A DNA stretch of 64,000 nucleotides from Dehalococcoidia bacterium (GCA_965237635.1 CBDEFX010000002.1:1983432-2047431), one strand, 5' to 3'; counted from the stretch's first letter, positions 7,600-54,078 are shown. The notes: generated by a model not told the origin, from the sequence alone. Numbers and translations are program-made.

Positions 7600-7721
7600 G
7601 TCGTGCCATGCGCGCCGGGCCACTTGGTCTTGCCGCTCATCCAGCTCCGCGCCAATTGTCCGTAGAAGGTCTATGCGCCACCCATCCGCCAATAGCAGGA
7701 AGGCCGATTCCATAAAGGGGA

Positions 7722-8117: not shown

Positions 8118-8141
8118 CTAACCGACGTGGAGGAGCAGGAC

Positions 8142-9358: not shown

Positions 9359-9370
9359 TAATGGGGTCCA

Positions 9371-41554: not shown

Positions 41555-43538
41555 TGATTCCCTCGCAAAAAGGCCTGTTTGAGATGAACCCTGACGTGCG
41601 AAGGGGCCTGGAAGGGAGGAGGCCACGGGATGCCGGCTGCTGGCCTCACCGCACCATCTGCCGCGCTCAGGACAAGCGTGATCCCGTTGCGGTACCCCTT
41701 CCGTGGCTCAGGGCACCCGGTGGAAGCTGTGGAGCGGCGCCCTCATGCGGCCGCGACCGCAGGTACCGTCCCGACCGCCCGCTGAGCCGTGTTCTCCATC
41801 TCCACCAGGCGTGCATGGACCATCCGCTTGAAGTTACACGCCAACGCCTTCAGGTAGACGGCAAGCCGCACCCGACGGCCCCCTCGCACCCGCAAGCGCC
41901 CAAGCCCGTGGGCGCGCTTCAGCTCGGAGTTCGTTCCCTCGATACCAGCCCTTATGGCATACCGCTTGCGCCACTCCTCGGTGGCCTCGGCCCTCCGGCG
42001 CCGCTCGATGTTCACCTTCACCAGGTCCGCCTTGAGAACGTAGTCCCCCGCACGCCGGTCCAGCTTCACTGGGCAACGGGACCGCAAGGGGCAGGGCTCG
42101 CATGTTGTCCCGGCAAAGTGGACCTCTACCCGCTCCGGCGCATCCTCCAACTCGTACTCCTCGATGGACGGGTAGCCGGCGGGGCACACCGTGGCCTGCT
42201 CCCCTATGACGTCGATCTGGAAGTCCGCGGCGGTGAGCGGCGGTGGTCCGTCACGCTCTCCTTCGTGCGAGTTCCCCGGCGCCGACCCCGCCACCGGGCT
42301 CACCAGTTCCGTTCCCCGGCGCGAGGCTTCGAAGGCATTGCGGCCCGACCCATACGCCGTGTCGACGAAGAGCTCGTCCGGTCGGACCTTCCGCTCCGCG
42401 AGCTCGTCAACGACCGGCACGCTCACGTCGGTGTCGCTCCCACTCGAGGGGGTCACCTCCACGTGGGTGATGAGCTGGGTGACGTTCTCCTCGTGGCAGG
42501 TCTCCGCCACCTGCACCTCGTACCCCTTCCCCTTGTGGCCGCTGTAGGTCACATCCGGGTCGTGGGGCGATTGCAGCGAGTCGGCGGACACCTGCTTCGG
42601 GTCCTTCAAGGCCACGGGCACCTTGCATTCCCCAGCATCGTCGTCATCGTCCCCCGGGCGCCCGTCCCGGTGTTTGCCCACATGGCACTGCTCCCGCAGC
42701 AGCCGCTCCAGCAGCCGGTACTCCTCCAGCTGGGCAGCAGTCGTGCCACGGAACCGGTCCACCAGCCGGTAGAGGTCCCAGGCACAGACCGAAAAGCGTC
42801 GCCGACCCTCCCCCGTGTGGGCGTCCTCGTAGTGGGTCGCCTCGTCTTCTTCCTTCAAATAGCGCCCCAGGAGGCCCTCCGGAACCACAGGGCGAAGCTC
42901 TGGGTGCTCCCAGCGCAAGGCCCGCAGGAACAACCGCATCGTCTCACAGAACAGGCCCAGCCGGGTGAGTGTGGCGATGTTGCTCATGATGTGGGTGGAG
43001 TCCAGCCGTTGCTTTCCGGTGCGTATGCCCAGCGCCTGGATGATCCGGTCCGTGGTCTCCTGGAAAGCCAGCCGGCCACCATCGTGCTGCATCAGGCGAA
43101 CTCGGAAGTTGTGGAGGGTCTTCTGGGGCAGGTGGGTCTCCTCGATGTCCAGCCGCAGGGCGTGGTGCCAGAGCAGGTTGAACTCTAGCTGCTCCAGGGC
43201 TTCACCGTCGGTGAGGTTGAACATCTCTTTGAGAAGGTGGACCCCGAGGACGGTCTGCACCGCTCGGTTGGGACGGCCGTTGTCCGCGCAGTACATCGGA
43301 GCAAAGAGCTCCTCGTCAATCAGGGGGAGCGCCTCGTTTCGGAAAACCTCGGCCCAACTCCCCTCCAGGCGCTTAGCCTTCTTCGGCGTCACCAGGAACT
43401 GGGACTGCCAGAGGCTCTCTTGCGGGTCTCGCGCTCGGAACATGCTCCCCTCCCTCGCCCGGGCGCTGCCCCAACGCCCCTTCCCCACATTATCCTCCCA
43501 TTGCCCCCGGAGGACGAGGGGTTTTTACGAGGGAATCA
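41555..43538 (-). mobile_element. IS1182/IS5-like insertion sequence nested in istA
   Basis: Terminal inverted repeats TGATTCCCTCG(C/T)AAAAA (41555-; reverse complement ending at 43538). Flanking tetramers are AGCA (41551-54) and AGCT (43539-42). Removing the element and one tetramer restores istA as ...HSDASFVKVYP. Confidence 0.8.
41743..43488 (-). CDS. DDE transposase (DUF772-type N-terminus; IS1182/IS5 superfamily)
   Basis: FAPMYCADNGRPNRAVQTVLGVHLLKEMFNLTDGEALEQLEFNLLWHHALRLD is a DUF772-like N-terminal domain, and the C-terminal RYAIRAGIEGTNSELKRAHGLGRLRVRG is typical of this superfamily. The probable start is MFRARDPQ at 43443. Confidence 0.75.
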   Translation of the reverse strand: MGKGRWGSARAREGSMFRARDPQESLWQSQFLVTPKKAKRLEGSWAEVFRNEALPLIDEELFAPMYCADNGRPNRAVQTVLGVHLLKEMFNLTDGEALEQLEFNLLWHHALRLDIEETHLPQKTLHNFRVRLMQHDGGRLAFQETTDRIIQALGIRTGKQRLDSTHIMSNIATLTRLGLFCETMRLFLRALRWEHPELRPVVPEGLLGRYLKEEDEATHYEDAHTGEGRRRFSVCAWDLYRLVDRFRGTTAAQLEEYRLLERLLREQCHVGKHRDGRPGDDDDDAGECKVPVALKDPKQVSADSLQSPHDPDVTYSGHKGKGYEVQVAETCHEENVTQLITHVEVTPSSGSDTDVSVPVVDELAERKVRPDELFVDTAYGSGRNAFEASRRGTELVSPVAGSAPGNSHEGERDGPPPLTAADFQIDVIGEQATVCPAGYPSIEEYELEDAPERVEVHFAGTTCEPCPLRSRCPVKLDRRAGDYVLKADLVKVNIERRRRAEATEEWRKRYAIRAGIEGTNSELKRAHGLGRLRVRGGRRVRLAVYLKALACNFKRMVHARLVEMENTAQRAVGTVPAVAAA

Positions 43539-44016
43539 AGCTTGCGTCGCTGTGGGGAAGGTCCAGCACGAAGTAGTGGATGGTCTGCTCCACTCCGCCG
43601 ATCACCGCCTTGGCCTGGCCGAAGTCGCACTGGGCGTGACCGGGAGGGTGAGACAGCGGAACGTACATCTCACGCGTCCGCCGCCGCCGCTCGCGCACGT
43701 AGTCTTTGACTATCGTGTACTTGCCACTGAACCTGTGCTCAGCTCTCAGACGCTCGTAGATCCGCTTCGCGGTGTGGCGCTGCTTCTTCGGAAGACTGCG
43801 GTCATCCTCCAGTATCCGGTCGATCACCCCGCGGTACGGGTCCAGCTTGGGGCGGCGGGGCGGTGACTCCCGACGGTAACCGGGAGGCACCGAGTACTCC
43901 AGCATCTTGCGCACCGTATCCCGGTGCAGACCGAACACTCGGGCAGCCTCCCGCGTGCTCATCCCCTCCACCATGCAGACCCGGCGCACTCGCACGTACA
44001 GATCCACCTTGTACAT
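43539..44016 (-). pseudogene. istA: IS21-family transposase IstA, N-terminal part (HTH)
   Basis: MYKVDLYVRVRRVCMVEGMSTREAARVFGLHRDTVRKML...HAQCDFGQAKAVIGGVEQTIHYFVLDLPHSDA, then the junction. Confidence 0.85.
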
Positions 44017-44160
44017 CCTTCACACCTTCCATCGAGTTGCCTCCAACTCTATAGAAGGCGGCGGGTGGTCCAGTTTTCAAGCGCCACTCCTCAACGCTCG
44101 ACTCCGCCTCACCGGTCCATTATTACTCCGCCCTTTACACGCAGGAGCGGCACCGTCCTG

Positions 44161-44592
44161 ATGAAGGCATACACAACCCACAAAGAGGAATCCGAGGTGT
44201 TCTTGTCCTACAAGCGCGCCGACCAAGCCACTGCATTGATCTTGGCCAAGGGCCTTGATCAAAAGGGAAGACGGGTATTCATAGATGTCCACGACGACAC
44301 GCTGGCGCCGGGCCAGGAGGACTTGGACGACGCACTGTTGACTGCTATATCCAAGTCAGACACGATGGTAGTGATCGTCTCGGACGAAACCCAATGGTCA
44401 TGGTGGGTGCCTTGGGAGATTGGTGTCTCGACGCCCTTCCGCAAACCGAAGGCCATGTACAAGCCACAGACCGACAAACCATTGCCGACCTATCTTAAGA
44501 AGTTGCGGAGGTTGCGGAATTCATCGGAGGCCAATTTGTTGGTGTTCGCCCACAGTAAGCTCCGGTTGCCCGGTTCGGGGCACAGTCGGTGA
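44161..44592 (+). CDS. TIR-domain protein (short, stand-alone)
   Basis: 143 aa from ATG 44161. EVFLSYKRAD (beta-A FxSY), DTMVVIVSDETQWSWWVPWEIG (W..E with a candidate catalytic Glu). The track N-terminal extension to 43924 lies in IS21 DNA. Confidence 0.75.
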   Translation: MKAYTTHKEESEVFLSYKRADQATALILAKGLDQKGRRVFIDVHDDTLAPGQEDLDDALLTAISKSDTMVVIVSDETQWSWWVPWEIGVSTPFRKPKAMYKPQTDKPLPTYLKKLRRLRNSSEANLLVFAHSKLRLPGSGHSR

Positions 44593-44654
44593 CCGGATGC
44601 GTCGCGGCCGTCGGACCGCCAGACTTCAGATAGCAGCACTTCTATGAGAGGCGC

Positions 44655-45185
44655 ATGACAATGCCAAAGCTGGTCAACGTAAAGCTAGATCTGAAGTTGC
44701 CGGGAATCGGAGGGGTTGCCGGAACGTGGGAACCGGACGAATCCGAAGTGAGGGCAGCCTGGGAGCTGTATGTGGAAATGGCGACTCGGACTCCACTCGG
44801 TAGCTTCTCAACCCAAGAGGGGTCTCTGCGAGAAGCCCTGAACTCCATCTACTCGTTGTTCGACACCACAAGAGGCATCTTGAGGAAGTATGGACCAGGC
44901 GTGGCGCGGCCAAAGAGCGGCCATGAGATGTCCTTTGGGTACCTGGCTGTCTCGATGCTTAATCTGGTACTCCGTCCGCTTCTCACGGAGTGGCACCCCA
45001 AGCTTCGGAGCTGGGAACGAGACAATTCACACCTAGACGAAATCGAATGGGAGGAACGCAACGATTTCCTCAACGCGCTCAATGAAATCAGCGGTCAGCT
45101 TCGTCAGTACGCTGGTCTGTTCGCCGAAGTCGCAGATGTACCCGAACTGACAGAGAGTGGAGATGCGACGACAACAACGACATAA
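44655..45185 (+). CDS. Hypothetical helical protein between two TIR-type genes
   Basis: 176 aa with no TM segment. AAWELYVEMATRTPLG...LREALNSIYSLFDTTRGILRKYG... I recognise no family. Its 3' end overlaps the next ORF. Confidence 0.55.
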   Translation: MTMPKLVNVKLDLKLPGIGGVAGTWEPDESEVRAAWELYVEMATRTPLGSFSTQEGSLREALNSIYSLFDTTRGILRKYGPGVARPKSGHEMSFGYLAVSMLNLVLRPLLTEWHPKLRSWERDNSHLDEIEWEERNDFLNALNEISGQLRQYAGLFAEVADVPELTESGDATTTTT

Positions 45186-45717
45186 GGTATTCGTTAGCTA
45201 CCATCACGAGAACGACCAAGGGAGTCGTAACCGGTTCGAGAGACTGTTCGCCGAGGTATACGACATAACGGATTCGCGATCAGTAAAGATAGGCGCCATC
45301 CCCAACGGATTGACCCTCGATGAAATCAGCCGCCGTATCCGCGACGACTACCTAAGTGACTCTACAGTGACCGTGGTTCTCATAGGGAAAGATACATGGC
45401 GGAGGAAGCACGTCGACTGGGGAATCGCCGCAACGCTTCGCGGCACCGACGCCAATCCGAGATCAGGTCTGCTTGGCATTCTCCTGCCTACACACGCTTC
45501 CTACAATAGAGAAGACTACGATCCGTACACGATTCCACCACGACTCCACTACAACGTAGAATGTGGCTTTGCCGATTTGTATTCTTGGAGCGAATCGCCC
45601 GACGATGTGGCCGGCTGGGTACACAGGGCCTACAGGCGCAGAAGCACAGTCATTCCGGATAACTCCTCCGTCAGGTTCGCAAAGAACAGGAAGGGTCCAC
45701 GGTGGTACCTTCATTAA
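45163..45717 (+). CDS. DUF1863 / ThsB-type TIR-like domain protein
   Basis: HKVFVSYHHENDQ and TVTVVLIGKDTWRRKHVDWGIAATL fit the MTH538/ThsB-like pattern. The usual W-x-E glutamate position reads W-G-I. The start is ATG 45163 or GTG 45157. Confidence 0.65.
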   Translation: MRRQQRHKVFVSYHHENDQGSRNRFERLFAEVYDITDSRSVKIGAIPNGLTLDEISRRIRDDYLSDSTVTVVLIGKDTWRRKHVDWGIAATLRGTDANPRSGLLGILLPTHASYNREDYDPYTIPPRLHYNVECGFADLYSWSESPDDVAGWVHRAYRRRSTVIPDNSSVRFAKNRKGPRWYLH

Positions 45718-45785
45718 GGATGCGGTCGAACGTCGATAGTGCCGACAAACGATAGGTGCCCTCAATTTGAGGCTGGTCCCGAGAT

Positions 45786-46454
45786 TTATCCCCAGTCCAG
45801 GGGAGCACCAGAATAACCGCCCTCCTGAAGACTTCTGAGCCACTCGACGAACTGAACGATAGTTCCTCCTGAGAAGCTATTGCGGTGTCCAATTCCCGCA
45901 TGAACGATGTTCGTCCCACCGAATGTAGGGATCTTCTGTCCCTGACCGCCGAAATAGACGAAGTCGTCACTGACGAGAACGCGGTTCACGGACGTATCGC
46001 GGCGGACGTTGTGAATATTGAGCGCGCCATCATGCAAGCTGTGGTGCGAGTCGGCCTGAAGCCATGAGCCACTGATCTCGTCCCACTGGTATATGTTGTC
46101 TCCAAAGGCTCGCATCTTGCTCGCGTGTAGGTTGGGACGCTTGTTGTTGAAACGAGGGTCATTCCAATAGTCATTAAACGACACGGCCTCACTGACCCGC
46201 ATGGCATAGACAAGGTGTCCGTCTCGCTGCCTAGTTTTTGAACCCGTGCCAACCACCCAGTCTCCAATCGTGGCTGCTTGCCTGATTTTTGGCTTACAGG
46301 TAGCTAGTGTGCACAAGCCGTAGAAGGGATTCGGAGCGAATCCAAAATCCCTGGCTACTACGTATGAGTGCAGTCTCGTCACTGGGGAGTCTATCCACAG
46401 GAGTGTCTCGGGATAGGCCGACGATCCCGGCTGGATCCATCCTGGTTGAACCAA
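45786..46454 (-). CDS. Nmad2-like (nucleotide-modification-associated domain 2) protein
   Basis: LHSYVVARDFGFAPNPFYGLCTLATCKPKIRQAATIGDWVVGTGS matches my memory of the Nmad2 N-terminal signature. The ATG at 46454 overlaps the upstream TIR gene by 64 nt. An alternative GTG at 46382 lies 9 nt after that gene's stop. Confidence 0.55.
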   Translation of the reverse strand: MVQPGWIQPGSSAYPETLLWIDSPVTRLHSYVVARDFGFAPNPFYGLCTLATCKPKIRQAATIGDWVVGTGSKTRQRDGHLVYAMRVSEAVSFNDYWNDPRFNNKRPNLHASKMRAFGDNIYQWDEISGSWLQADSHHSLHDGALNIHNVRRDTSVNRVLVSDDFVYFGGQGQKIPTFGGTNIVHAGIGHRNSFSGGTIVQFVEWLRSLQEGGYSGAPLDWG

Positions 46455-46867
46455 CCATCAGAGTCGCCGTTTATGGTATCAATGATGCTCTCACCATGCC
46501 AACCAACAATTGCGTCACCATATCGGTCAAGTGCCTCTGGCAGTTCACAGTCCTTGGAACCCCATTCCCATACGCCTACAATCCTCTTCCCAAGTTTGTG
46601 GGCCTGCTCGATTTCCCAGTCCACCCAATCGCTATCCTTAGTGTCTGGGGACACATACACGACGAGCACACCGGCCCACCTGATATGAGGTGCCAGTATC
46701 TGGCTCTTGATGTAGTCCGGGTTGCTGGCTGCGTTCGGTTTGTCCGAAGTAATGGATGAGTCACGCAATGTCATGCCATGCTTCTGGGTTAAGTCCTTAA
46801 TGCGAGTAAGGCCCTCATCATCCTCATGTATGTGACTGATAAAGACATTCCGCGTATCGTCCTCCAT
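46391..46867 (-). CDS. TIR-domain protein embedded in the nucleotide-modification operon
   Basis: RNVFISHIHEDDEGLTRIKDL, VLVVYVSPDTKDSDWVDWEIEQAHKLGKRIVGV (W..E Glu present). The ATG lies 3 nt after the ThyA-like stop and AAGGAG lies upstream. Confidence 0.7.
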   Translation of the reverse strand: MEDDTRNVFISHIHEDDEGLTRIKDLTQKHGMTLRDSSITSDKPNAASNPDYIKSQILAPHIRWAGVLVVYVSPDTKDSDWVDWEIEQAHKLGKRIVGVWEWGSKDCELPEALDRYGDAIVGWHGESIIDTINGDSDGWFNQDGSSRDRRPIPRHSCG

Positions 46868-46870
46868 CGT

Positions 46871-47948
46871 CTACCACTCCTTTCCCAGACGTTGTCGACG
46901 TCTACTAGCTTGACTAGGGCTGTCACTGGATCTACTCGTCTGCCTCTGTCTGCTCGAGCACCATCTGGACCAAAGCTGTTGATAAACGGGATTGGTGCAG
47001 CGAGACATGATGCGGGCTGCGGAGTCCGTCAGCCCACGGCGGCGTAGAGCTTCTGCCGTGAGGACCGCCGCCATGTTCCTGTAAGCCTGGGGTGCGCTGT
47101 CCCAGGAGGCCAACCCTTCGAGCGTATCCGGATCGGCCTTCGGGTCGATCATTTGCTCAACGCGGCTCTCCAGCTCCTTGAATACCCGATCTGACACCTG
47201 CCTAGTCAGGGTCAGGCAGTCGTCATTCGGCGAAACACTCGGCAGACCCCTTGAAGCCATCACGTTCTCCCAGCGACGGTCGTACACGTGCAGGCTGTCG
47301 CTTATCTGGGTGTACGAACCGCACTCGACTCCCAGCCACCCTGCCAGTATCTCCTGCATGGCTGTGAATTGAACAAAGTTGTGAGGAACTCCCAGGAACA
47401 TGTCATTGCTGCGGATGACCTGAAGCCACTCCAGCTTTCCGTCACGAAGCTTCGGCATCGCAACTACGTTGCACGGGGTGTCACAATCAGCTGGAGTCCC
47501 GTCATATGCAGGCAGGTCTAGTCGGGAATCCCAAATCTGCAGAACCACCTGCCTCGTGTTCGGATCGTGTTCAAGTACCTGGTAGGCCCGCTCAAGCTGG
47601 TCGATGCCAAGGTGGTGACGCAGGCGATTAGCCATAGGCTCCATGAAGCTCCGGGCCGGGCCCAACGAAGTCGTGATACCGGCTGTTCCAATATTCCAAG
47701 AATGCCAGGTCACGTCGTCCGGTCATAATCCAGACGACCTCCGCCAACGCAAAGGCCAAGTTCAACGGTGGCTCCCTGGAAACGACCCACCGCTGGCGCG
47801 GGTCTGCGATTGAGATTGCGACATGAAGAATTTCTCTGGTCGGACCTCCTCTGCTGCTTTGGCTGCCCACCCCTTCCGACCGTCGAAATGCGTCAGCCGC
47901 CTGCTGCCACACGTCATCGGCCGATTGCCCCTGAAAGGCCGAAATCAC
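46871..47948 (-). pseudogene. Thymidylate synthase (ThyA)-family pyrimidine methylase/hydroxymethylase homologue with a 1-nt frameshift near 47630
   Basis: N-terminal ORF (47948-47628): TREILHVAISIADPRQRW...LNLAFALAEVVWIMTGRRDL..LEYW......GPGPELHGAYG*. The second frame reads NRLRHHLGIDQLERAYQVLEHDPNTRQVVLQIWD....DTPCNVVAM.KLRDGKLEWLQVIRSNDMFLGVPHNFVQFTAMQEILAGWLG...G.Y.QISDSLHVY. Deleting one T in ggc-t-aat gives GAYGNRLR, the family consensus. Confidence 0.75.
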
Positions 47949-49642
47949 TCTGACCCTCCTTGAAGAGGAAGCAGATGGTTAATGCCCCACTTGGGAGGGT
48001 ACCAATACCCTATGGGTTTCGGTGAGGGACGATACAGCTGCTTGATACGAGTGCGCTTGCTGAGCCCCTTGATCTCTGGATGTTTCACACGCGCGTACTT
48101 TGACACCTCGCAGAAGAGGTTTTGGCAGTCAATAAGCTGTAGCCGCCGCCCTCCCAGCGTACGGAACTTCAGTCCCAGCCTCTCGAACTCACGCTCTTGG
48201 CTCTCCGTAACCAATTTGATGATATCGGCATCGTTCAGGCCGCTCTGATCTGTGAAACACTTGCGAATGCCATCCAGGGCTCCTGGCCCGGGCACAACGA
48301 ACTCCATCTCGGAGAAATCGGTAAATTCGCTGTAGTTGAGGTCCGTAGCGAACTGATAAGCAAGGAAGTTACCTATGGTCGGGTATGACCGGAGCACATC
48401 GAAGGCCTCGGCCATGGTCGACGCCTCAGTGATCCTTTGCGGCACCTCATCCTCCATCATCCGTTCCAGTAGCATCAGGTGATTGCGATGCTTCTGAGAT
48501 TGGCCGAACGAACTCCTGCCTGACGGCATCATGTAGGCCGCCGAGTAGATTCTTGTGCCGGCCGCAAGAGCCTCCGTCAGCACACGGTCGTACTTCTGGA
48601 AGGAGTAGTCGGCATGACTGATCGTCGTCAGCTGACCGCGCAACATCTCCCACGTATCGATTTTGTTGAAAAGCTTGAAGAGGATGGTGCGGAAGAACAC
48701 TTCCTCCGGCGACGGGTCCCCATCGTATATAACGTGCCTGATGAGGTACTGGCTCACGCGATCCGATGCCCGATAGGCATTGGTGAACTTATGCTTGGCG
48801 AGGATAGGGTCGGTCGTCCACGGAGCGGGAAGTCCTTCGAGCTTGCGGAAGAACACCTCCTGACGCTCGACAGCAAAGCGCCAGTAGCTCTCATACACGA
48901 CCGTGGTTCCAGCCGACGCTAGCGTTGTGAAGGCCGATGTAGCCTTTGTGGGAGGAGGGAGAAGGGGCAACTGGTCACTAGGTCCCCGCAGCGGGCTGGC
49001 CAAGTCGGCAGGAGCGTCATGTCGCACGTCAGGAATTAGGCCTTGGAGACAGGCGAGTAGCTGACTGAGAGAGTCTTCCACCGCTGAATCATTCTGTATT
49101 CGGTGGATAGGGTACTGGCCCTTCTCGTTGTCTGAAAGTATCTGGTAGCCCTCTCGCAGCGGTGTGCAGTCCTCACCATCAAATGCCTCCCCGGACCGGT
49201 CGACCAAGAAGAGGGCATCGGGCTTGATGCCACGCCAATGTAGACGCTCTGCCTGAATCAAGGCGTCCAAAGTGGGGCTCTCGACCGACGCTGCCCGACC
49301 GTAGACCCAGGTCGACCACCAAAAGCGGTCGAGGATCACCCAACGACCTTCACGGAGCGCCGGTAGGATACGCTGTTCTATCTCATCCAGATGTGCGGCG
49401 ATGTGTAGGGCTTGCAGGCTCGTGCCTGTTATCGCCTTTAGCCCATACGAAGCCGGGGCGTGATGCACGTCATAGACCAGTCGGCCAACGGTCCCCTCAT
49501 CCTTACCTGGAAACGATAGGTGGTCGCATATGAGGCCCATTGCCTTGAGCTTGTCGGCGAGGGCTCGTGAAAGCGTGGACTTTCCGACGCCGTCAGGTCC
49601 CTCAAAGACGATTAGCCTTCTTGAATTCATCACCTCAGGCAT
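47945..49642 (-). CDS. Fusion of a dNMP (thymidylate)-kinase-like P-loop domain and an aGPT-pyrophosphorylase-like (DNA base hypermodification) domain
   Basis: N-terminus LIVFEGPDGVGKSTLSRALADKL...VILDRFWWSTWVYG is Tmk-like. C-terminal ~350 aa: FTNAYRASDRVSQYLIRHVIY, FRTILFKLFNKIDTWE, YPTIGNFLAYQFATDLNY, QNLFCEVSKY. I recognise these as the alpha-glutamyl/putrescinyl-thymine pyrophosphorylase family, with moderate certainty. The stop overlaps the ThyA-like GTG (GTGA). The start is chosen at ATG 49642, after GGGAGAG. Confidence 0.6.
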   Translation of the reverse strand: MPEVMNSRRLIVFEGPDGVGKSTLSRALADKLKAMGLICDHLSFPGKDEGTVGRLVYDVHHAPASYGLKAITGTSLQALHIAAHLDEIEQRILPALREGRWVILDRFWWSTWVYGRAASVESPTLDALIQAERLHWRGIKPDALFLVDRSGEAFDGEDCTPLREGYQILSDNEKGQYPIHRIQNDSAVEDSLSQLLACLQGLIPDVRHDAPADLASPLRGPSDQLPLLPPPTKATSAFTTLASAGTTVVYESYWRFAVERQEVFFRKLEGLPAPWTTDPILAKHKFTNAYRASDRVSQYLIRHVIYDGDPSPEEVFFRTILFKLFNKIDTWEMLRGQLTTISHADYSFQKYDRVLTEALAAGTRIYSAAYMMPSGRSSFGQSQKHRNHLMLLERMMEDEVPQRITEASTMAEAFDVLRSYPTIGNFLAYQFATDLNYSEFTDFSEMEFVVPGPGALDGIRKCFTDQSGLNDADIIKLVTESQEREFERLGLKFRTLGGRRLQLIDCQNLFCEVSKYARVKHPEIKGLSKRTRIKQLYRPSPKPIGYWYPPKWGINHLLPLQGGSE

Positions 49643-49840
49643 GCACGCTCTCCCTTGAATCAGTTCCTGCCTGATCCTCAAAGTCCAATAGGTCCGACTC
49701 CACCCGGCGGGCCGGTCTAGCCGAGTCCCTCTTGGCTTTGCGCTGAGTTCCTACCTGCAGGGCGACTCCGGTGAGGTTTGCGATACAGAAGGAGGAGTTG
49801 CCTAACTCGACAGCACACCACCCGACTCGCCCCGGCACAG

Positions 49841-51214
49841 CTACCTCGAGGCTCCAAGATATCGCTGCACATCTGCTTCATCCCCTCTGCCTCTTATCCC
49901 TGAGCAGTGGTAGCAGTCAGGGTCGGGGTTTTTGGTTGGAATGGTGACGACGCCTCTCTCACCATAGTATTTCAGGACGTTCTTTGGTTGCCGCGGTACG
50001 CCGGTAGTCGCCAGCATGAACTCCGTCACTCCGAGAGAGGCGATTACGCCATTGATGGACACCACTGAAGGACCAGCTTCCCCCAAGTCATCAATGGGAA
50101 CCCCGTAAATGGCCGCGTGGTCCTTTCTCTGTTCGTCGCTCATCAAATCGATTCGGGCCGCTTGAAGGTCGAGTTCGTCGTAACAGACCAGGCAACCGGT
50201 GTCGTCGCCTACTACACACACCCTACCTCCATACTTTGTACCCCCCTCGACGATATCTGACGCCAGGTCAAAGTAGGGCTTGGCATAGGCCAGACATAGT
50301 TCATTTAGAATCAGACGTGACCCATCGTTGTCCATACACCCGAACACATAGTCAGCCTCCATGATGGCATCAAAGGCAGGTTGACCTCGCAGGCATTCAG
50401 CAATGGTGACGACCTCTACCTCCGGATTGATTTCACCAGCAAGCCGTCTCCCGAGATCAACCTTTGGCATGCCAGGAACGAGATCGTCATGCCTTAGACC
50501 AACGTAACGATTGCGATTTGTCTCGTCGACCTCTTCGGAGTCGATCAAAACCAGCCTCCCCATGCCGAGGAGGGCAAGCTGCTGAACGACGTGAGTCCCC
50601 AGGCCACCAACTCCAACAACCGCAACGCTGGCGGCCCTTAGAGAATCCTGCCCACTCTGACCGAAGAAGCGAACGTTGCGATCGTACCTCTCGCTATCCA
50701 CGACAAGGGATGACAGCCTGGTGGGCTGGAACGCTCTGTCTCCCACGACGATGCCGTCCAGGTGCTGAGGTTTCTCGGGATCCATCATCCACGCAAGGGC
50801 ATCGAAGTCGGTGTGCGTGACCACCACGGCGAAATAGGGTCTCTTCCTGAGACGCCACCGAACATGAGGAACGAACTCCCGTAGCCCGCGCCGGTCCAAT
50901 GGGGAGAATCTTACTGGCTGGGGACCTAAGTGGGAGTGGAATTCGACTATCGAAGCGCCAAGGTCGTGAGCTCGCTTGATGACACTGGCCCGGAATTCGT
51001 CATTAAGCTCTAGGTGGTACCAACTATTCTCAACTAAGCCGTCTGGAGGGACGGGATACCATTCGACATGCTCGTAGACTTGGGTATCGTCGGTGTGAAA
51101 CCCTGGCACGACAAACATGAACCCCGCAGACTCTGACTCCTCGTTGTTCTCAAGGAGATGTGCCAAGACCTCCTCGTAGACGCTCCTAGGGACATGGAGA
51201 AGAACTCGGCCCAT
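49841..51214 (-). CDS. JAB/MPN (JAMM) peptidase fused to a ThiF/E1-like adenylyltransferase
   Basis: N-terminus ESAGFMF ... EFHSHLGPQPVRFSPLDRR is a JAMM-like E...HxH...S..D. C-terminus VAVVGVGGLGTHVVQQLALLGMGRLVLIDSEEVDETNRNRY, FGCMDNDGSR, plus CLVC and CYHC pairs. The ATG lies 1 nt after the E2 stop (TAGCATG). Confidence 0.8.
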   Translation of the reverse strand: MGRVLLHVPRSVYEEVLAHLLENNEESESAGFMFVVPGFHTDDTQVYEHVEWYPVPPDGLVENSWYHLELNDEFRASVIKRAHDLGASIVEFHSHLGPQPVRFSPLDRRGLREFVPHVRWRLRKRPYFAVVVTHTDFDALAWMMDPEKPQHLDGIVVGDRAFQPTRLSSLVVDSERYDRNVRFFGQSGQDSLRAASVAVVGVGGLGTHVVQQLALLGMGRLVLIDSEEVDETNRNRYVGLRHDDLVPGMPKVDLGRRLAGEINPEVEVVTIAECLRGQPAFDAIMEADYVFGCMDNDGSRLILNELCLAYAKPYFDLASDIVEGGTKYGGRVCVVGDDTGCLVCYDELDLQAARIDLMSDEQRKDHAAIYGVPIDDLGEAGPSVVSINGVIASLGVTEFMLATTGVPRQPKNVLKYYGERGVVTIPTKNPDPDCYHCSGIRGRGDEADVQRYLGASR

Positions 51215-51215
51215 G

Positions 51216-51605
51216 CTAAGCCCCCTCCTGGAACCTGTCGGCGAAGCCTCTTGCCCACTGAAGAAGATTGGATCCCCTTGGGGTGTCCGCCGTTGGTTTC
51301 CATACTATCGGGGTCCACGAAAAGAAGCCCCACGTTTCTCCGAATGGAGGTTGATTGGAGGCCGGGTCCGTGTAGTTGTTTGGAGTAGCTCCTTCGAACT
51401 GTATCCCCGACGGAACGAAGAATCCGTACAGTGGTGCCGCGGGATACCCATCACTGACTTGGAACGCCACATCAGTTGCCGCTCTGTTCCATCCTTCGGG
51501 AAGTGGATACGACGGCAGGCATACCCAGCGCCCGTCCTCTTGGTACACGACGTCTGGGAATACCTGCCGGATGAGCGTCAGCTCGGCCTCAATACGCTCC
51601 GTCAC
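51216..51605 (-). CDS. Prokaryotic E2/UBC-like protein (Prok-E2_E-like)
   Basis: 130 aa from GTG 51605. TERIEAELTLIRQVFPDVVYQEDGRWVCLPSYPLPEGWNRAATDVAFQVSDGYPAAPLYGFFVP matches the pattern of E2/UBC proteins that accompany multiubiquitin + E1 + JAB genes. The long track extension to 51938 overlaps the Ubl gene in another frame. Confidence 0.6.
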   Translation of the reverse strand: MTERIEAELTLIRQVFPDVVYQEDGRWVCLPSYPLPEGWNRAATDVAFQVSDGYPAAPLYGFFVPSGIQFEGATPNNYTDPASNQPPFGETWGFFSWTPIVWKPTADTPRGSNLLQWARGFADRFQEGA

Positions 51606-51610
51606 GACGC

Positions 51611-51853
51611 CTAGCCCCGCTGGAATCTGATCTTCTTCGAGAAGCCTATTCCCGGCCTCAGCTTTACTACCTCGCCTGGCTCCAAGTTTCGTTCGGTGCC
51701 GTCCTCCAGATCTATCAGTACCACGCCTGCTGAGACATCCCAGCCGCCGAGTGCGGCTACCTCTTCCGTGGTAATAGTGTCCTTCTCCCAGGGCTTGAAC
51801 GCACCCTCGATGTCTACTTCGTACTTGGCGTCGCGTACGGTCTGCTCGCTCAT
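51611..51853 (-). CDS. Ubiquitin-like (single multiubiquitin/beta-grasp-type domain) protein ending in Gly
   Basis: 80 aa, YEVDIEGAFKPWEKDTITTEEVAALGGWD...VVLIDLEDGTERNLEPGEVVKLRPGIGFSKKIRFQRG*. A strong RBS (AAGGAGA) lies 9 nt upstream. The C-terminal residue before the stop is Gly. Confidence 0.6.
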   Translation of the reverse strand: MSEQTVRDAKYEVDIEGAFKPWEKDTITTEEVAALGGWDVSAGVVLIDLEDGTERNLEPGEVVKLRPGIGFSKKIRFQRG

Positions 51854-51963
51854 GATTAGCTATCTCCTTCTGCCCTAGATCGGGGCCATGACTTGGGATC
51901 CTTGTGGTAAGGATACGAAGGGGCGCTCGCGATGTCAAGCGGTACTGCTCTAGAGCTTAAACG

Positions 51964-51992
51964 TTGACAAATGGACACTCGGCCATTACTCT
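51964..51992 (+). promoter_or_regulatory. Candidate sigma-70-type promoter of the XRE/ImmA operon (TTGACA-17-TACTCT), with an upstream palindrome
   Basis: TTGACA at 51964-51969, a 17-nt spacer, then TACTCT at 51987-51992, ~35 nt before ATG 52027. A perfect 10-bp palindrome GCTCTAGAGC lies at 51947-51956 and an ATCCTT-N5-AAGGAT repeat at 51898-51914 in the divergent intergenic region. Confidence 0.4.
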
Positions 51993-52026
51993 CACCTACA
52001 GATAGCTCAGAAGAGGTGACGCAAGA

Positions 52027-52422
52027 ATGAACCTTGGCACGTACCTAAGGCAGGTAAGGGAAGAGCGTCAACTCTCTCTCAGAGACGTAGAGCGCCTTGC
52101 CAAAGAGAGGGAACTCAGCGCAGACGTGAGTAGTGGATATCTCAGCATGTTGGAGCGAGATGCAGTTAAGCAGCCGGCACCTAGGGTCCTGCACACCCTT
52201 GCTGAGATCTATGAAGTCGACTACATCGATCTGATGCGTAAGGCAACTTACATTCCCGACGATGCCGATGTGAAGGGCGCCTCAGCAACTAAGGCCGCAT
52301 TCCGGGGTGTTTCTCAACTTTCAGAGGAACAACGCCAGCGCGTTCAGCGCATGATCGATTTTGAGCTGAGTGAGGGACGTGCCGCCAGGCACCGGCGCGG
52401 TTCAAGGGATGCTAATGGGTAG
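52027..52422 (+). CDS. XRE-family HTH transcriptional regulator
   Basis: LGTYLRQVREERQLSLRDVERLAKE....VSSGYLSMLERD. RBS AGAGGTGA. Divergent from the Ubl operon. Confidence 0.8.
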   Translation: MNLGTYLRQVREERQLSLRDVERLAKERELSADVSSGYLSMLERDAVKQPAPRVLHTLAEIYEVDYIDLMRKATYIPDDADVKGASATKAAFRGVSQLSEEQRQRVQRMIDFELSEGRAARHRRGSRDANG

Positions 52423-53293
52423 CACAGAAGAATCTAGTCGCCTATCAATCAGAAGCGAAGCCGAGCGTTTCCTTGCGATGCACGGATTTTCCGCGCCTCC
52501 GCTACCTTCAGATCAAGCTCTGGCTGCACGAAAGCTGGCCGTGTCTCAATTCTCCCTCGACGATTTGCTGCTGAAGGCCAATCTGCCACCCGAGGACAAC
52601 AAGAAGATTCAGGCCATGCTTGACGCCGACGCAAGAACCGTCGCATTCAAGAGAGACCTCCCTGAGAAAAAGAAGGATTGGGGTTCACTTCACGAGGTCG
52701 CTCACGAGTTCATCCCGTGGCAGAGAGATCTCCTGTACTACTGTCCTCTCCTTTGGCTTCCGGTGCACTTACAAGCCCAATTGGAAGCTGAGGCCGACCT
52801 TTTCGCCGCAGAGGCCTTCTTCTTTGGCAGCCAGTTTCACAAGCAAGCCTATTCCGGTGACCTCAGCCTCAGCACCGCCATTGAACTAGCGGCTGATGTT
52901 TACGGAACCTCTTTCCATGCAACGTTTGCGCATTACGTGGAAGAGAGCCCTTTGCCCCGCTGTCTACTAGTCTGGAAACCAAAGGGTGGGAACGGGTCAC
53001 TAGGATTAGCTGTAGGGCTTGAGTTGCATTACTACATTAAGTCCAAAAGCTTTCTCTGGCATATCGAACCTGGACAGATAGCGGACCCAGATGATGCTGT
53101 GAGTAAAGTGTTCATGGAGTCAGATCTCGGGGTCGTTAAGCACGAAATGGTGTTTCAGAGCGAGTCTGGTGAAGAGAACGTGACGGACGCTGAATCCTTC
53201 TCAAATTCATACAACACGTTTACGCTGATATCGCAGCCCGTGCGCAGACGTACGCAATTGGCCCTCGCGAAAGCCGCCAAAGCTGGACGCTAG
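52409..53293 (+). CDS. ImmA/IrrE-family (DUF955) zinc metallopeptidase
   Basis: HExxH motif in GSLHEVAHEFIPWQ. Its start overlaps the XRE stop. Length ~294 aa. Confidence 0.7.
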   Translation: MLMGSTEESSRLSIRSEAERFLAMHGFSAPPLPSDQALAARKLAVSQFSLDDLLLKANLPPEDNKKIQAMLDADARTVAFKRDLPEKKKDWGSLHEVAHEFIPWQRDLLYYCPLLWLPVHLQAQLEAEADLFAAEAFFFGSQFHKQAYSGDLSLSTAIELAADVYGTSFHATFAHYVEESPLPRCLLVWKPKGGNGSLGLAVGLELHYYIKSKSFLWHIEPGQIADPDDAVSKVFMESDLGVVKHEMVFQSESGEENVTDAESFSNSYNTFTLISQPVRRRTQLALAKAAKAGR

Positions 53294-53697
53294 AGAGCCA
53301 GGCAATCCACATCAGAGGGTAGCCTCATTGGCATGGAGGCCGGTATGGACGCCCTGCAGACTCTGTCTTTCGACAGTGCTACGTGAACAGAGCCGTCACA
53401 CTCACCACGACCGTCGCTCAGTCGGTAACCACGCCAGGTCGCTGCCGGCCCAGATCTGAAAGATGGCACTTCCTATTGTCCAAAGCCGGTTTCTGTAGTA
53501 CTGCCTACTGTCCAAGGCAGATTTGCAGAATCCCAAGCCATAATTCGAAGACGGTTCTGTCTATCGTCACAAAAGGCCCACCTGGGAAGGTTGGAATCGA
53601 TACCAGGGCTGCCGTGGCGAAACCACTTATCGATCCGCCCGACCTTTCGCTGTTGTATCCGAATCGCCCGCCCACGAGTATCGGGTCTTGGCAAGCT

Positions 53698-53860
53698 TGA
53701 TTCTCTCGTAAAAAGTCTGTGCAGGTCGAATTAGAACAACCGTACCCTTGCCTGGGTACAATATACAGTCTCTGTTCCGTGTCCTACCCCAACATACGGT
53801 AGCGCTCACATGTGCTAAAGCGCTGGAACTTCCTCAAAACGGGTTTTTACGAGGGAATCA
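53698..53860. mobile_element. MITE copy 1 (163 bp) with termini matching the nested IS1182/IS5-like element
   Basis: TGATTCTCTCGTAAAAAGTCTGT...GGGTTTTTACGAGGGAATCA. The right 20 nt are identical to the IS end at 43519-43538. It is flanked by AGCT (53694-97) and AGGT (53861-64). Confidence 0.8.
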
Positions 53861-53864
53861 AGGT

Positions 53865-54027
53865 TGATTCTCCCGTAAAAAGTCTGTGCAGGCCGAATTA
53901 GAACAAACGTACCCACGCCTGGGTACAATATATAGTCTCTGTTCCGTATACTACCCCAACATACGGCAGCGCTCAAATGTGCTAAATCGCTGGAACTTCC
54001 TCAAAGCGGGTTTTTGCGAGGGAATCA
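53865..54027. mobile_element. MITE copy 2 (163 bp), in direct tandem with copy 1
   Basis: TGATTCTCCCGTAAAAAGTCTGT...GGGTTTTTGCGAGGGAATCA. It is flanked by AGGT and AGCT (54028-31) and its interior is collinear with copy 1 apart from scattered substitutions. Confidence 0.8.
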
Positions 54028-54078
54028 AGCTTCTGAATCAGGGCCTCATAGTGGTCTAGGGAAGGAGGAAGTAGGTCG

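What the first reader, a model, noticed from the sequence alone, without database searches (positions are those of the whole stretch)
44161..53293. Composite island hypothesis: TIR signalling, pyrimidine modification and Ubl conjugation genes clustered as one regulated unit
Within 9 kb there are three TIR-type genes, a nucleotide-kinase/pyrophosphorylase/ThyA/Nmad2 cassette, a Ubl-E2-JAB-E1 cassette and a damage-responsive-type regulator pair. All eight genes from 51853 down to 45786 are on the same strand. Their junctions are very short or overlapping except for one ~200-bp gap (49643-49840).

The island is visibly less GC-rich than the core. It is bounded by an IS21 on one side and by MITEs on the other. 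I know of no described system that couples Ubl conjugation with base-hypermodification enzymes and a TIR. The genes may be two or three adjacent independent defence systems, as is typical of defence islands. Alternatively they may form one multi-module system. One possibility is Ubl tagging of phage or host proteins together with modification or depletion of pyrimidine nucleotides. The frameshift in the ThyA-like gene warns that part of it may be inactive in this strain.
Basis: inference. Interest (0 to 1): 0.85.

Follow-up and report, generated by a model that had tools for sequence, protein, structure and literature searches.

The report
Two defence modules side by side
The 9-kb island is real, but it is two self-contained bacterial defence-type gene sets that sit next to each other (a TIR/pyrimidine-modifying set related to the recently validated E. 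coli system DS-4, and a damage-regulated ubiquitin-like conjugation operon), not one new composite machine.

Summary
Comparative evidence splits them into two autonomous units.

Unit 1 (44655-49642) has six genes: a dTMP-kinase-like domain fused to HMUDK_hel (formerly aGPT-Pplase1), a MilA-like pyrimidine hydroxymethylase ("ThyA-like"), a ThsB-type TIR, Nmad2, and an accessory orf176-TIR pair. It is a homologue of DS-4, a five-gene E. coli anti-phage system validated in the DefensePredictor paper. The cassette recurs in 22 of 80 related genome loci across several phyla. Only one of those 80 has any Ubl/E1 gene nearby, and that one is a distant homologue.

Unit 2 (49841-53293) is CapH/CapP plus Ubl-E2-JAB/E1. 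It is Bub-like, with an invariant E1 Tyr370 and E2 Ser96. It differs from described Bub in having separate Ubl and E2 genes and no BubE. Of 92 loci with JAB-E1 homologues, only one carries the pyrimidine cassette. That locus is a close relative sharing the same 9.2-kb block at about 89% nucleotide identity.

Homology to each module stops at the ~130-nt junction. The only link left open is transcriptional read-through, since no terminator was predicted.

This copy also carries a 1-nt frameshift in the hydroxymethylase and a Glu-to-Gly change in one TIR.

Verdict: ordinary adjacency of two variant systems, of moderate interest.

The parts
44161..44592 (+). TIR1: a small ThsB-like TIR protein of 143 aa. 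It is a sporadic neighbour of the cassette and lies inside the 9.2-kb block shared with L081.
   Evidence: Pfam TIR_2 8e-12 and PADLOC ThsB 1e-13. Homologues lie next to the cassette only in L081 and L009.
44655..45185 (+). orf176: conserved accessory protein of unknown function, always paired with TIR2.
   Evidence: No Pfam, PADLOC or NCBIfam hit. Found with TIR2 in 16 of 80 loci. In L004-L011 it lies between the ThyA-like gene and TIR3 on the same strand. The single-sequence model is a low-confidence helical bundle, pLDDT 60.
45157..45717 (+). TIR2: accessory ThsB-type TIR. In this copy the conserved Glu of the VDWEI motif is Gly (codon GGA at 45421-45423).
   Evidence: ThsB_TIR 2e-16. Glu is present in 17 of 19 orthologues, including L081.
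45786..46454 (-). Nmad2, a core gene of the DS-4-like system. The likely true start is GTG 46382, giving 198 aa.
   Evidence: Pfam Nmad2 9e-71. 50% identical to E. coli DS-4 Nmad2, E 9e-54. Homologues are typically about 198 aa. AF2 model has pLDDT 89. Only weak PUA-like (ASCH/EVE/YTH) fold hits were found.
46391..46867 (-). TIR3: the core ThsB-type TIR of the DS-4-like system, with the WVDWEIE motif intact.
   Evidence: ThsB_TIR 6e-23 and PADLOC ThsB PDLC00418 5e-68. 38% identical to the DS-4 TIR, E 4e-32. Always co-occurs with Nmad2, 22 of 22 loci.
46871..47948 (-). ThyA-superfamily enzyme closest to MilA CMP 5-hydroxymethylase. It is interrupted by a 1-nt insertion near 47629-47631 that creates a TAA stop.
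   Evidence: Thymidylat_synt 2e-17. The best PDB hit is MilA at 2e-14, ahead of ThyA at 2e-10. The intact orthologue in L002 hits MilA at 8e-30. The frameshift was located by alignment to L081, L002 and L003. The L081 orthologue is an intact 342 aa.
47945..49642 (-). Fusion of a dTMP-kinase-like P-loop domain with an HMUDK_hel (aGPT-Pplase1) domain, 565 aa. The start is ATG 49642, preceded by a GGGAGAG ribosome-binding site.
   Evidence: Pfam HMUDK_hel 2.5e-112 and Thymidylate_kin 8e-16. 29% identical to the DS-4 HMUDK_hel protein, E 7e-32. Thousands of homologues exist, mostly 565 aa. Phage homologues are annotated aGPT-Pplase1.
49643..49840 (-). Junction between the two modules. The proximal ~70-100 nt are the cassette's own conserved upstream region. 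About 130 nt (49713-49840) are shared only with L081. No terminator was predicted.
   Evidence: blastn boundaries, alignment, terminator scan and fold with z = -0.4. The 67-aa ORF at 49635-49838 has no family hit.
49841..51214 (-). JAB/JAMM peptidase fused to an E1 adenylation domain (BubCD-like).
   Evidence: ThiF 6e-39 and Prok-JAB 2e-3. Matches Citrobacter BubCD at 3e-12 and is the same length. Across 26 homologues the invariant residues are E28, H93, H95, S104, D107 (the JAMM motif), two CxxC motifs, and Y370 in the crossover loop.
51216..51605 (-). E2-like protein (Prok-E2_E / BubB-like) with an invariant Ser96. It is a separate gene starting at GTG 51605.
   Evidence: Prok-E2_E 5e-5. The best PDB hit is Citrobacter BubB at 3e-4. 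The family has 347 representative clusters. S96 is the only invariant residue in 42 sequences, and there is no conserved Cys.
51611..51853 (-). Ubiquitin-like protein with a single beta-grasp domain. It ends in ...FQRG followed by a stop, so it is already mature.
   Evidence: Multi_ubiq 5e-8. Sequence read directly. Fused relatives have the junction ...KRG|E2.
51854..52026 (.). Divergent control region. It has a sigma-70-like promoter for the Ubl operon (51938-51910) and a conserved block containing the palindrome GCTCTAGAGC (51947-51956), the putative CapH operator.
   Evidence: Promoter scan scored 10 of 12. The block is invariant in the window, L081 and L086 while the flanking sequence varies. 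It is a single copy in the window.
52027..52422 (+). CapH-like XRE-family HTH repressor.
   Evidence: HTH_31 1e-7. PADLOC capH 1e-8.
52370..53293 (+). CapP-like metallopeptidase with a HEVAH motif.
   Evidence: PADLOC capP 2e-9. No Pfam or PDB hit. A 304-aa orthologue occupies the same position in L081 and L086.

Best explanation
The interval holds two autonomous, horizontally mobile defence-type systems that lie head-to-tail.

System B (44655-49642, with TIR1 as a loose neighbour) is a homologue of the validated E. coli anti-phage system DS-4.
- A MilA-like pyrimidine 5-hydroxymethylase would make a 5-hydroxymethyl-pyrimidine nucleotide.
- The dTMP-kinase-like domain, fused to an HMUDK_hel/aGPT-Pplase1 domain, would phosphorylate it. 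Alternatively it would phosphorylate hydroxymethyl-pyrimidine residues in DNA.
- The ThsB-type TIR proteins would act either as infection sensors/NADases or as N-glycosidases on the modified nucleotide.
- Nmad2, possibly a PUA-like modified-base binder, would complete the pathway.
- The proposed net effect is poisoning or marking of replicating phage DNA or of the nucleotide pool.
The homology and the conserved gene set are shown. The chemistry is inferred.

System A (49841-53293) is a CapH/CapP-controlled Bub-like conjugation operon.
- CapH represses the divergent promoter until CapP, activated by DNA damage or ssDNA, cleaves it.
- The E1 domain adenylates the C-terminal Gly of the Ubl and passes it via Tyr370 to E2 Ser96 (oxyester chemistry, as in Bub), and then to unknown targets.
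- The JAB domain trims or recycles conjugates.
- No fourth gene is required.

The two systems share a 9.2-kb block with one related genome, but they are otherwise found apart. Their adjacency is therefore defence-island juxtaposition, with at most read-through transcription linking them. In this copy System B may be crippled by a frameshift and a TIR2 Glu-to-Gly change.
For: Forward test:
- 80 genome loci carry the kinase-HMUDK_hel gene. Of these, 44 have the ThyA-like gene adjacent, 22 have TIR3 and Nmad2 (always together), and 16 have orf176 and TIR2 (always together).
- Only 1 of the 80 has any E1, and it is a 28%-identity homologue in a different arrangement.

Reverse test:
- 92 loci carry JAB-E1 homologues, of which 49 have at least 2 kb downstream. 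Only L081 has the cassette.
- The ORFs downstream of E1 form no recurrent family.

Module boundaries:
- Ubl-module homology ends at 49841-49857. Cassette homology spans 49712/49653 to 44621.
- The cassette keeps its own conserved upstream ~80-100 nt.
- The putative operator occurs only once in the window.

DS-4 homology:
- HMUDK_hel 29% (E 7e-32), TIR 38% (E 4e-32), Nmad2 50% (E 9e-54). The sequences came from the supplementary tables of PMC13092281.
- The TS-like proteins of both systems hit MilA best.

Bub-like features:
- Invariant Y370 and the JAMM motif.
- Invariant S96 in the E2.
- BubB and BubCD are the closest solved bacterial relatives.
- The regulators match capH and capP.
- Bub chemistry and its CapH/CapP association are described in PMC11601596. 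The CapP mechanism is described in PMC13373217.
Against: - The two modules are co-linear on one strand, and no intrinsic terminator was predicted in the 198-nt junction.
- The whole 9.2-kb block is conserved as a unit at ~89% nucleotide identity in L081, where the flanks are unrelated.
- A second, independent juxtaposition exists in L056, where a distant CapH/CapP-Ubl-E2-JAB/E1 module lies next to the cassette.
- HMUDK-ThyA cores elsewhere are often directly preceded by an HTH/M78 pair, in 23 loci. DNA-damage control of such systems is therefore common and could be supplied here by the neighbouring operon.
- The sampled loci are limited to what pattern scans recover.
- No function was tested. 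Bub operons have not been shown to be anti-phage (PMC13373217).
Confidence: 0.78

Rival explanations
1. Transcriptional coupling only. In this lineage the CapH/CapP-controlled promoter reads through the junction, so the DS-4-like cassette becomes DNA-damage-inducible even though the two systems are biochemically independent.
For: - The genes are on the same strand with a 198-nt gap and no predicted terminator.
- The block is conserved as a unit in L081.
- 23 other HMUDK-ThyA loci have their own HTH/Peptidase_M78 pair immediately upstream. Damage-responsive control therefore suits this kind of system.
Against: - The cassette retains its own conserved upstream region.
- There is no second copy of the putative operator.
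- The terminator scan is a crude consensus method for a Chloroflexota-like genome.
- No expression data are available.
Confidence: 0.2
2. A true composite system. Ubl conjugation acts on, or is required for, the pyrimidine/TIR module, for example by tagging phage or cassette proteins while nucleotides are modified.
For: - The genes are adjacent and co-oriented.
- The block is shared with L081.
- L056 provides a second juxtaposition with a distant Ubl module.
Against: - Co-occurrence is 1 in 80 in the forward test and 1 in 92 in the reverse test.
- In L056 the Ubl module is on the opposite side of the cassette and is transcribed away from it.
- Each module is complete and widespread on its own.
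- E. coli DS-4 protects without any Ubl genes (PMC13092281).
Confidence: 0.05
3. The kinase/hydroxymethylase cassette is not a defence system here. Instead it is a self-DNA (or prophage-derived) base-hypermodification pathway, as in ViI-, M6- and SP10-type phages.
For: - The HMUDK_hel domain has homologues in 494 phage records from thymidine-hypermodifying groups.
- The Pfam names derive from that pathway (PMC8989533).
Against: - There are no phage structural genes nearby.
- Only one viral contig was recovered in IMG/VR.
- There is no aGPT-Pplase2 transferase, PLP or radical-SAM partner.
- The cassette is tightly linked to ThsB-type TIR genes.
- Its E. coli homologue DS-4 was validated as anti-phage.
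Confidence: 0.07
4. System B is a decaying, non-functional copy in this genome.
For: - A 1-nt insertion truncates the hydroxymethylase.
- The conserved Glu of TIR2 is Gly here, whereas 17 of 19 orthologues have Glu.
- The island is surrounded by IS elements.
Against: - The other five genes are intact and 73-93% identical to orthologues.
- The closest relatives come from long-read metagenome assemblies, in which single-base indels are a common error. The frameshift may therefore be an artefact (inference).
Confidence: 0.35

Closest known systems
DS-4 (working id NTTI), E. coli anti-phage system from DefensePredictor (PMC13092281; NZ_QOYB01000018.1:32107-36002)
   Same: The component set is the same: a TS-like enzyme, a P-loop nucleotide kinase, HMUDK_hel, a ThsB-type TIR and Nmad2. 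Three proteins show direct sequence homology (29-50% identity, E 1e-32 to 1e-54). The TS-like proteins of both systems are closest to MilA.
   Different: Here the kinase is fused to HMUDK_hel and is dTMP-kinase-like, with no BLAST match to the DS-4 kinase. The gene order is kinase-hel, then TS, then TIR, then Nmad2, rather than TS first. An extra orf176-TIR2 pair and TIR1 are attached. The host is a Chloroflexota-like genome. The TS-like gene is frameshifted. The mechanism of DS-4 itself is unpublished.
Type I Bub (6E.1) operons, BubAB-BubCD-BubE (PMC11601596)
   Same: Both have a JAB-E1 fusion of the same size with a crossover-loop Tyr (Y370). Both have an E2 with an invariant Ser in place of Cys. 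Both have a Multi_ubiq-type Ubl ending in Gly. Both are frequently associated with CapH/CapP.
   Different: Here the Ubl and E2 are separate genes. There is no DUF6527/BubE in the window or in 10 inspected relatives. The His and Asp that accompany the catalytic Ser in Citrobacter BubB are not conserved. The published Bub catalogue was built from DUF6527-containing operons (PMC11601603), so this BubE-less group was not covered.
Thoeris (ThsA/ThsB)
   Same: Several ThsB-type TIR genes are clustered at one locus. PADLOC ThsB models match, up to 5e-68.
   Different: There is no ThsA-type effector (SIR2/SLOG or Macro) among the island's ORFs. The conserved partners are nucleotide-modifying enzymes instead.
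Phage thymidine-hypermodification clusters: 5-HMUDK plus aGPT-Pplase (PMC8989533, PMC5889632)
   Same: Both have an HMUDK_hel/aGPT-Pplase1 domain next to a P-loop kinase and a pyrimidine hydroxymethylase.
   Different: This locus is cellular, not viral. It has no aGPT-Pplase2 amino-acid transferase, PLP or radical-SAM enzymes. It is linked to TIR and Nmad2. The kinase domain belongs to a different P-loop family (Thymidylate_kin, not HMUDK_HMUD1).
MilA/MilB-type nucleoside-antibiotic steps (CMP 5-hydroxymethylase followed by an N-glycosidase). This rests on my own knowledge of the mildiomycin and bacimethrin pathways.
   Same: The hydroxymethylase is closest to MilA. A TIR-fold protein could play the N-glycosidase role, with a kinase acting on the hydroxymethyl-pyrimidine.
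   Different: This is analogy only. No MilB/BlsM homologue was detected and no product is known.
CapH/CapP regulators (Lau et al. 2022, as summarised in PMC13373217)
   Same: Both have an XRE HTH and a HExxH peptidase encoded divergently from the controlled operon. PADLOC capH and capP models match.
   Different: The peptidase scores below Pfam Peptidase_M78 detection. Cleavage and ssDNA activation were not tested.

Membership tests
DS-4 (DefensePredictor) | HMUDK_hel (PF18723) protein | tested here: met
   Pfam 2.5e-112. BLASTP to WP_087900470.1 gives 29% identity, E 7e-32.
DS-4 (DefensePredictor) | ThsB-type TIR protein | tested here: met
   TIR3 against WP_072044445.1 gives 38% identity, E 4e-32.
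DS-4 (DefensePredictor) | Nmad2 protein | tested here: met
   50% identity to WP_047174762.1, E 9e-54.
DS-4 (DefensePredictor) | Thymidylate-synthase-like enzyme | tested here: met
   Present but frameshifted. There is no direct BLAST hit to the DS-4 TS, but both have MilA as their best solved relative.
DS-4 (DefensePredictor) | dNMP kinase | tested here: inconclusive
   A P-loop Thymidylate_kin domain is fused N-terminally. There is no BLAST similarity to the 185-aa DS-4 kinase.
DS-4 (DefensePredictor) | Protection against phage | not testable with these tools
   Shown for the E. coli system only (PMC13092281).
Type I Bub | JAB/JAMM-E1 fusion with a catalytic Tyr in the crossover loop | tested here: met
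   Y370 and the JAMM residues are invariant in 26 homologues. BubCD hit at 3e-12.
Type I Bub | E2 with an invariant Ser instead of Cys | tested here: met
   S96 is the only invariant column in 42 sequences. BubB is the best PDB hit.
Type I Bub | His and Asp accompanying the catalytic Ser | tested here: not met
   The E2 in the window contains no His at all. The +2 position is variable across the family.
Type I Bub | Ubl-E2 fusion (BubAB) | tested here: not met
   The Ubl stop is TAG 51613-51611. The E2 starts at GTG 51605 in another frame. Fused forms do exist among relatives.
Type I Bub | DUF6527 serine protease BubE in the operon | tested here: not met
   No PF20137 hit in the island ORFs or in the precomputed Pfam of neighbours in L081-L091. 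No recurrent downstream gene appears in 52 loci.
Bil (Type I/II) | [quoted passage not shown] | tested here: not met
   There is a single ThiF domain fused to JAB in 457 aa. The only conserved Cys residues are in the Zn CxxC motifs.
Thoeris | ThsB TIR sensor | tested here: met
   PADLOC ThsB hits for TIR1, TIR2 and TIR3.
Thoeris | ThsA-type effector (SIR2/SLOG or Macro/TM) | tested here: not met
   No such hit in any ORF between 44 and 57 kb.
CapH/CapP | HTH repressor plus metallopeptidase pair adjacent to the controlled operon | tested here: met
   PADLOC capH 1e-8 and capP 2e-9. HEVAH motif present. Conserved palindrome in the shared promoter region.
CapH/CapP | ssDNA-activated cleavage of CapH | not testable with these tools
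   Biochemical property (PMC13373217).

The most novel reading that the evidence does not exclude
In this lineage the two modules have been welded into one DNA-damage-inducible block of 9.2 kb, conserved in two genomes with unrelated flanks. The CapH/CapP promoter would drive both Ubl conjugation and the TIR/hydroxymethyl-pyrimidine system by read-through. This would be an early stage in the evolution of a composite system. It would mirror the HTH/M78-controlled HMUDK-ThyA operons seen in 23 other loci.
Probability: 0.15. Interest if true: 0.5.

Novelty: new variant of a known kind. Interest (0 to 1): 0.35.

Why it matters
The composite-system idea would have been a new class of defence, but the data do not support it. 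Three useful points remain.

1. The DS-4 family has a validated phenotype but an unknown mechanism. It is shown here to be very widespread, with thousands of kinase-HMUDK_hel homologues across Chloroflexota, Acidobacteriota, Planctomycetota, Verrucomicrobiota and others. It has a stable core (kinase-HMUDK_hel plus a MilA-like hydroxymethylase) and at least two alternative accessory sets: TIR plus Nmad2, with or without orf176-TIR, or HTH/M78 plus a ~280-aa protein. The MilA-like identity of the 'thymidylate synthase' points to hydroxymethyl-pyrimidine chemistry and gives a testable mechanism.

2. A minimal three-gene Bub-like operon keeps the Tyr/Ser oxyester signature but has no BubE. BubE may therefore not be essential to this chemistry, and this group lay outside the published Bub catalogue.

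3. The case shows that tight, same-strand packing in a defence island does not by itself indicate a functional unit.

Tried and rejected
- Exact look-up of the kinase protein with the TTG start found nothing on record.
- The first metagenome scan, using single-sequence patterns for JAB-E1, found no relatives. It was repeated with alignment A1.
- PDB searches with the isolated JAB domain and with the E1 C-terminal part gave only noise. The active-site question was answered by family alignments instead.
- The PDB search with CapP found nothing. PADLOC did detect it.
- The Nmad2 fold search gave no significant match, best E 0.08. The PUA-like hint is therefore weak.
- The orf176 single-sequence model was too poor (pLDDT 60) to use for a fold search.
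- A 'variable fourth effector gene' downstream of E1 was considered and rejected. Downstream ORFs in 52 loci form no family, and many neighbours are on the opposite strand.
- A second CapH operator in the junction was sought and not found.
- Terminal repeats bounding the 9.2-kb block were sought and not found.
- The 67-aa ORF in the junction (49635-49838) was rejected as a gene. It spans the module boundary and has no family hit.
- By eye, the ~280-aa protein in the alternative cassette type looked ThyA-like. Neither BLASTP nor Pfam supported this.
- Viral-contig scans recovered only one locus per module.

Full report
OBSERVATION. Every gene in the finding is present.
- Pfam, PADLOC and NCBIfam scans identify three TIR proteins: TIR1 at 44161-44592(+), TIR2 at 45157-45717(+) and TIR3 at 46391-46867(-).
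- They also identify Nmad2 (45786-46454, -) and a ThyA-superfamily gene split into two ORFs (46871-47713 and 47628-47948, -).
- There is a 565-aa fusion of a dTMP-kinase-like P-loop domain with HMUDK_hel (47945-49642, -).
- The Ubl module comprises a JAB-E1 fusion (49841-51214, -), a Prok-E2_E protein (51216-51605, -) and a Multi_ubiq Ubl (51611-51853, -).
- A divergent HTH/HExxH-peptidase pair (52027-52422 and 52370-53293, +) matches PADLOC capH and capP.
tblastn finds it in 494 phage records of the ViI, M6 and SP10 groups, some annotated aGPT-Pplase1.
- The minus-strand genes are packed with junctions ranging from a 4-nt overlap to an 8-nt gap, except for the 198-nt gap at 49643-49840.
- IS21 (IstB, plus an IstA split by a nested DDE transposase) bounds one side.
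- The other side has a 174-bp unit repeated in tandem, not a demonstrated MITE.
- GC content is 0.557 against 0.597 for the window.

THE PYRIMIDINE/TIR CASSETTE IS ONE CONSERVED SYSTEM, AND IT IS KNOWN.
- The kinase-HMUDK_hel protein has thousands of homologues, mostly exactly 565 aa.
- A scan of one genome per species returned 80 loci. The closest are in Dehalococcoidia MAGs at up to 80% identity.
- tblastn of all island proteins against these loci gave these counts: the ThyA-like gene adjacent in 44, TIR3 and Nmad2 in 22 (always together), and orf176 and TIR2 in 16 (always together).
- In L004-L011 all six genes lie on one strand, in the order kinase-hel, ThyA-like, orf176, TIR2, TIR3, Nmad2.
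- The set also occurs in Acidobacteriota, Verrucomicrobiota, Myxococcota and Planctomycetota contigs.
- A literature search found that the DefensePredictor paper (PMC13092281) validated an E. coli system, DS-4. It is made of TS, dNMP kinase, HMUDK_hel, TIR and Nmad2.
- BLASTP of those published sequences against the window gives 29% identity (E 7e-32) for HMUDK_hel, 38% (E 4e-32) for TIR3 and 50% (E 9e-54) for Nmad2.
- The 'thymidylate synthase' of both systems is closest to MilA, a CMP 5-hydroxymethylase. The intact orthologue in L002 scores 8e-30, the window fragment 2e-14 and the DS-4 TS 7e-16. Each scores better against MilA than against true ThyA.
- Among the 25 loci with the kinase-hel/ThyA-like pair but no TIR/Nmad2, 23 instead carry an XRE HTH, a Peptidase_M78 protein and a ~280-aa unknown protein immediately upstream. 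Eight carry a dCTP-deaminase-like gene.

THE UBL MODULE IS A BUB-LIKE OPERON WITHOUT BubE.
- The best solved relative of the E2 is Citrobacter BubB. The JAB-E1 has the architecture and length of BubCD.
- In an alignment of 26 JAB-E1 homologues down to 47% identity, the JAMM residues, two CxxC motifs and Tyr370 in the crossover loop are invariant. Tyr370 corresponds to the oxyester-forming Tyr of BubCD described in PMC11601596.
- An exhaustive search found 347 representative E2 clusters. In 42 aligned members the only invariant residue is Ser96, and no Cys is conserved. This again matches the Bub signature.
- The His/Asp partners of the catalytic Ser in Citrobacter BubB are absent.
- The family mixes standalone E2s with Ubl-E2 fusions whose junction is ...KRG|E2.
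- In the window the Ubl ends ...QRG-stop, and the E2 starts 5 nt later in another frame.
- No DUF6527/BubE is present in the island or in ten inspected relatives.
- The published Bub catalogue was built from DUF6527 operons (PMC11601603), so this group was outside it.
- The divergent control region has a good sigma-70-like promoter. It also has a block containing the palindrome GCTCTAGAGC that is invariant across the window, L081 and L086.

DO THE TWO MODULES BELONG TOGETHER?
- Forward test: of 80 cassette-type loci with 10-kb flanks, none has a close Ubl, E2, E1, CapH or CapP homologue.
- One locus, L056, has a distant (28% identity) HTH-M78-Ubl-E2-JAB/E1 set. It lies on the orf176 side of the cassette and is transcribed away from it.
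- Reverse test: 92 loci carry JAB-E1 homologues, drawn from 10 genome or assembly contexts plus 80 metagenome contigs. Only L081 contains the cassette, and 49 of the 92 have at least 2 kb downstream.
- The ORFs following E1 in 52 loci form no recurrent family, and many neighbours are on the opposite strand.
- Relatives at 85-86% identity (L090, L091) lack the cassette.
- blastn shows that Ubl-module homology stops at the E1 stop codon (49841-49857). Cassette homology runs from 49712/49653 to 44621.
- The last ~80-100 nt before the kinase gene are conserved with cassette-only loci, which implies the cassette has its own upstream region.
- The putative operator is not repeated in the junction.
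- L081 shares the whole 44140-53343 block at 88.6-89.6% identity. Its flanks are unrelated and no terminal repeats bound the block.
- The juxtaposition therefore arose once and has been inherited or moved as a block.
- No terminator was predicted in the junction, so read-through remains possible.

MECHANISM (inferred).
- System A: CapH represses the promoter. CapP, activated by ssDNA, cleaves CapH (mechanism as summarised in PMC13373217). E1 adenylates the Ubl C-terminal Gly and transfers it through Tyr370 to E2 Ser96 and then to targets. JAB recycles conjugates. Targets and phenotype are unknown, and Bub has not been shown to be anti-phage (PMC13373217).
- System B: a MilA-like enzyme makes a 5-hydroxymethyl-pyrimidine nucleotide. 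The kinase-HMUDK_hel protein phosphorylates either that nucleotide or hydroxymethyl-pyrimidine residues in DNA.
- The TIR proteins act as sensors/NADases or as N-glycosidases.
- Nmad2 has a confident model (pLDDT 89). It gives only weak but consistent ASCH/EVE/YTH hits, so it may bind the modified base.
- Only the homology and the conserved gene set are shown. The chemistry is a hypothesis.

LESIONS IN THIS COPY.
- A 1-nt insertion near 47629-47631 truncates the hydroxymethylase. The L081 orthologue is an intact 342 aa.
- The conserved Glu in the VDWEI motif of TIR2 is Gly here (GGA at 45421-45423), whereas 17 of 19 orthologues have Glu.
- These may be real decay or assembly errors.

VERDICT. 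The composite-system interpretation is not supported, and the fallback of adjacent independent systems is. Each module is a new variant of a recently described kind: DS-4 and Type I Bub.

Noticed in passing
window 45421-45423: TIR2 has Gly (GGA) where 17 of 19 orthologues, including the 93%-identical L081 copy, have the conserved Glu of the VDWEI motif. This is the position of the catalytic Glu in TIR NADases, by general knowledge. L056 shows the same Gly.
   Followed up: partly
L010, L012, L016, L017, L019-L021, L024-L028 and others (23 loci), about 2 kb upstream of the kinase-HMUDK_hel gene: There is an alternative cassette type: XRE HTH (~117 aa), Peptidase_M78 (~291 aa), an unknown ~280-aa protein, kinase-HMUDK_hel and the ThyA-like gene, with no TIR or Nmad2. 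Eight loci also have a dCTP-deaminase-like gene nearby.
   Followed up: partly
L056 5982-9065: A distant (28% identity) HTH-Peptidase_M78-Multi_ubiq-E2-JAB/E1 module lies beside an orf176-TIR2-TIR3-Nmad2 cassette in a Chloroflexi MAG. It is on the opposite side of the cassette compared with the window. This is a second, independent juxtaposition.
   Followed up: partly
L084 9365-14289: Two Ubl-E2-E1 modules sit in tandem on an ICE-like element, separated by a 251-aa unknown protein. The Ubl modules in L082-L088 lie among serine recombinases, relaxase and T4SS genes.
   Followed up: no
window 51934-51958: A 25-nt block, TTGTCAACGTTTAAGCTCTAGAGCA, contains a perfect 10-bp palindrome. It is invariant in three diverged loci and lies just upstream of the -35 box. 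It is a candidate CapH operator.
   Followed up: partly
window 53692-54032: A 174-bp unit is repeated in tandem at 91% identity. Each copy carries a GC-rich hairpin followed by a T-run. A separate 86-nt stretch just upstream (window 53497-53582) matches L009 at 78%. A 26-nt stretch of the repeat matches 43519-43544, near the IS boundary.
   Followed up: partly
window 39750-44016: IS21-family element. IstB is at 39750-40652. IstA (40529-41626 plus 43525-44016) is interrupted by a nested DDE_Tnp_1_6 transposase at 41743-43488.
   Followed up: partly
proteins P0011 and P0012: Two close homologues of the kinase-HMUDK_hel protein are 846 aa rather than 565 aa. They probably carry an extra fused domain, possibly the hydroxymethylase.
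   Followed up: no
window 4603-12400: Further mobile or defence-type genes lie upstream: a VapE-like protein (4603-6069), an IS3-type integrase (8423-9358) and a 670-aa N6_Mtase/HSDR_N/Eco57I-type restriction-modification fusion (10388-12400). Housekeeping genes (LeuRS, isocitrate/isopropylmalate dehydrogenase, semialdehyde dehydrogenase) occupy 24-38 kb.
   Followed up: no
window 54079-57151: To the right of the island there are three small ORFs with no family hits, apart from a weak RmrA-like HTH match. There is also a 617-aa protein whose only recognisable part is a DnaJ domain (residues 385-432).
   Followed up: no
L081 13502-13642: The relative has a ~140-nt insertion between the ThyA-like gene and TIR3 that is absent from the window, L002 and L003. 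It also has a 4-nt indel that changes the C-terminus of the ThyA-like protein.
   Followed up: no
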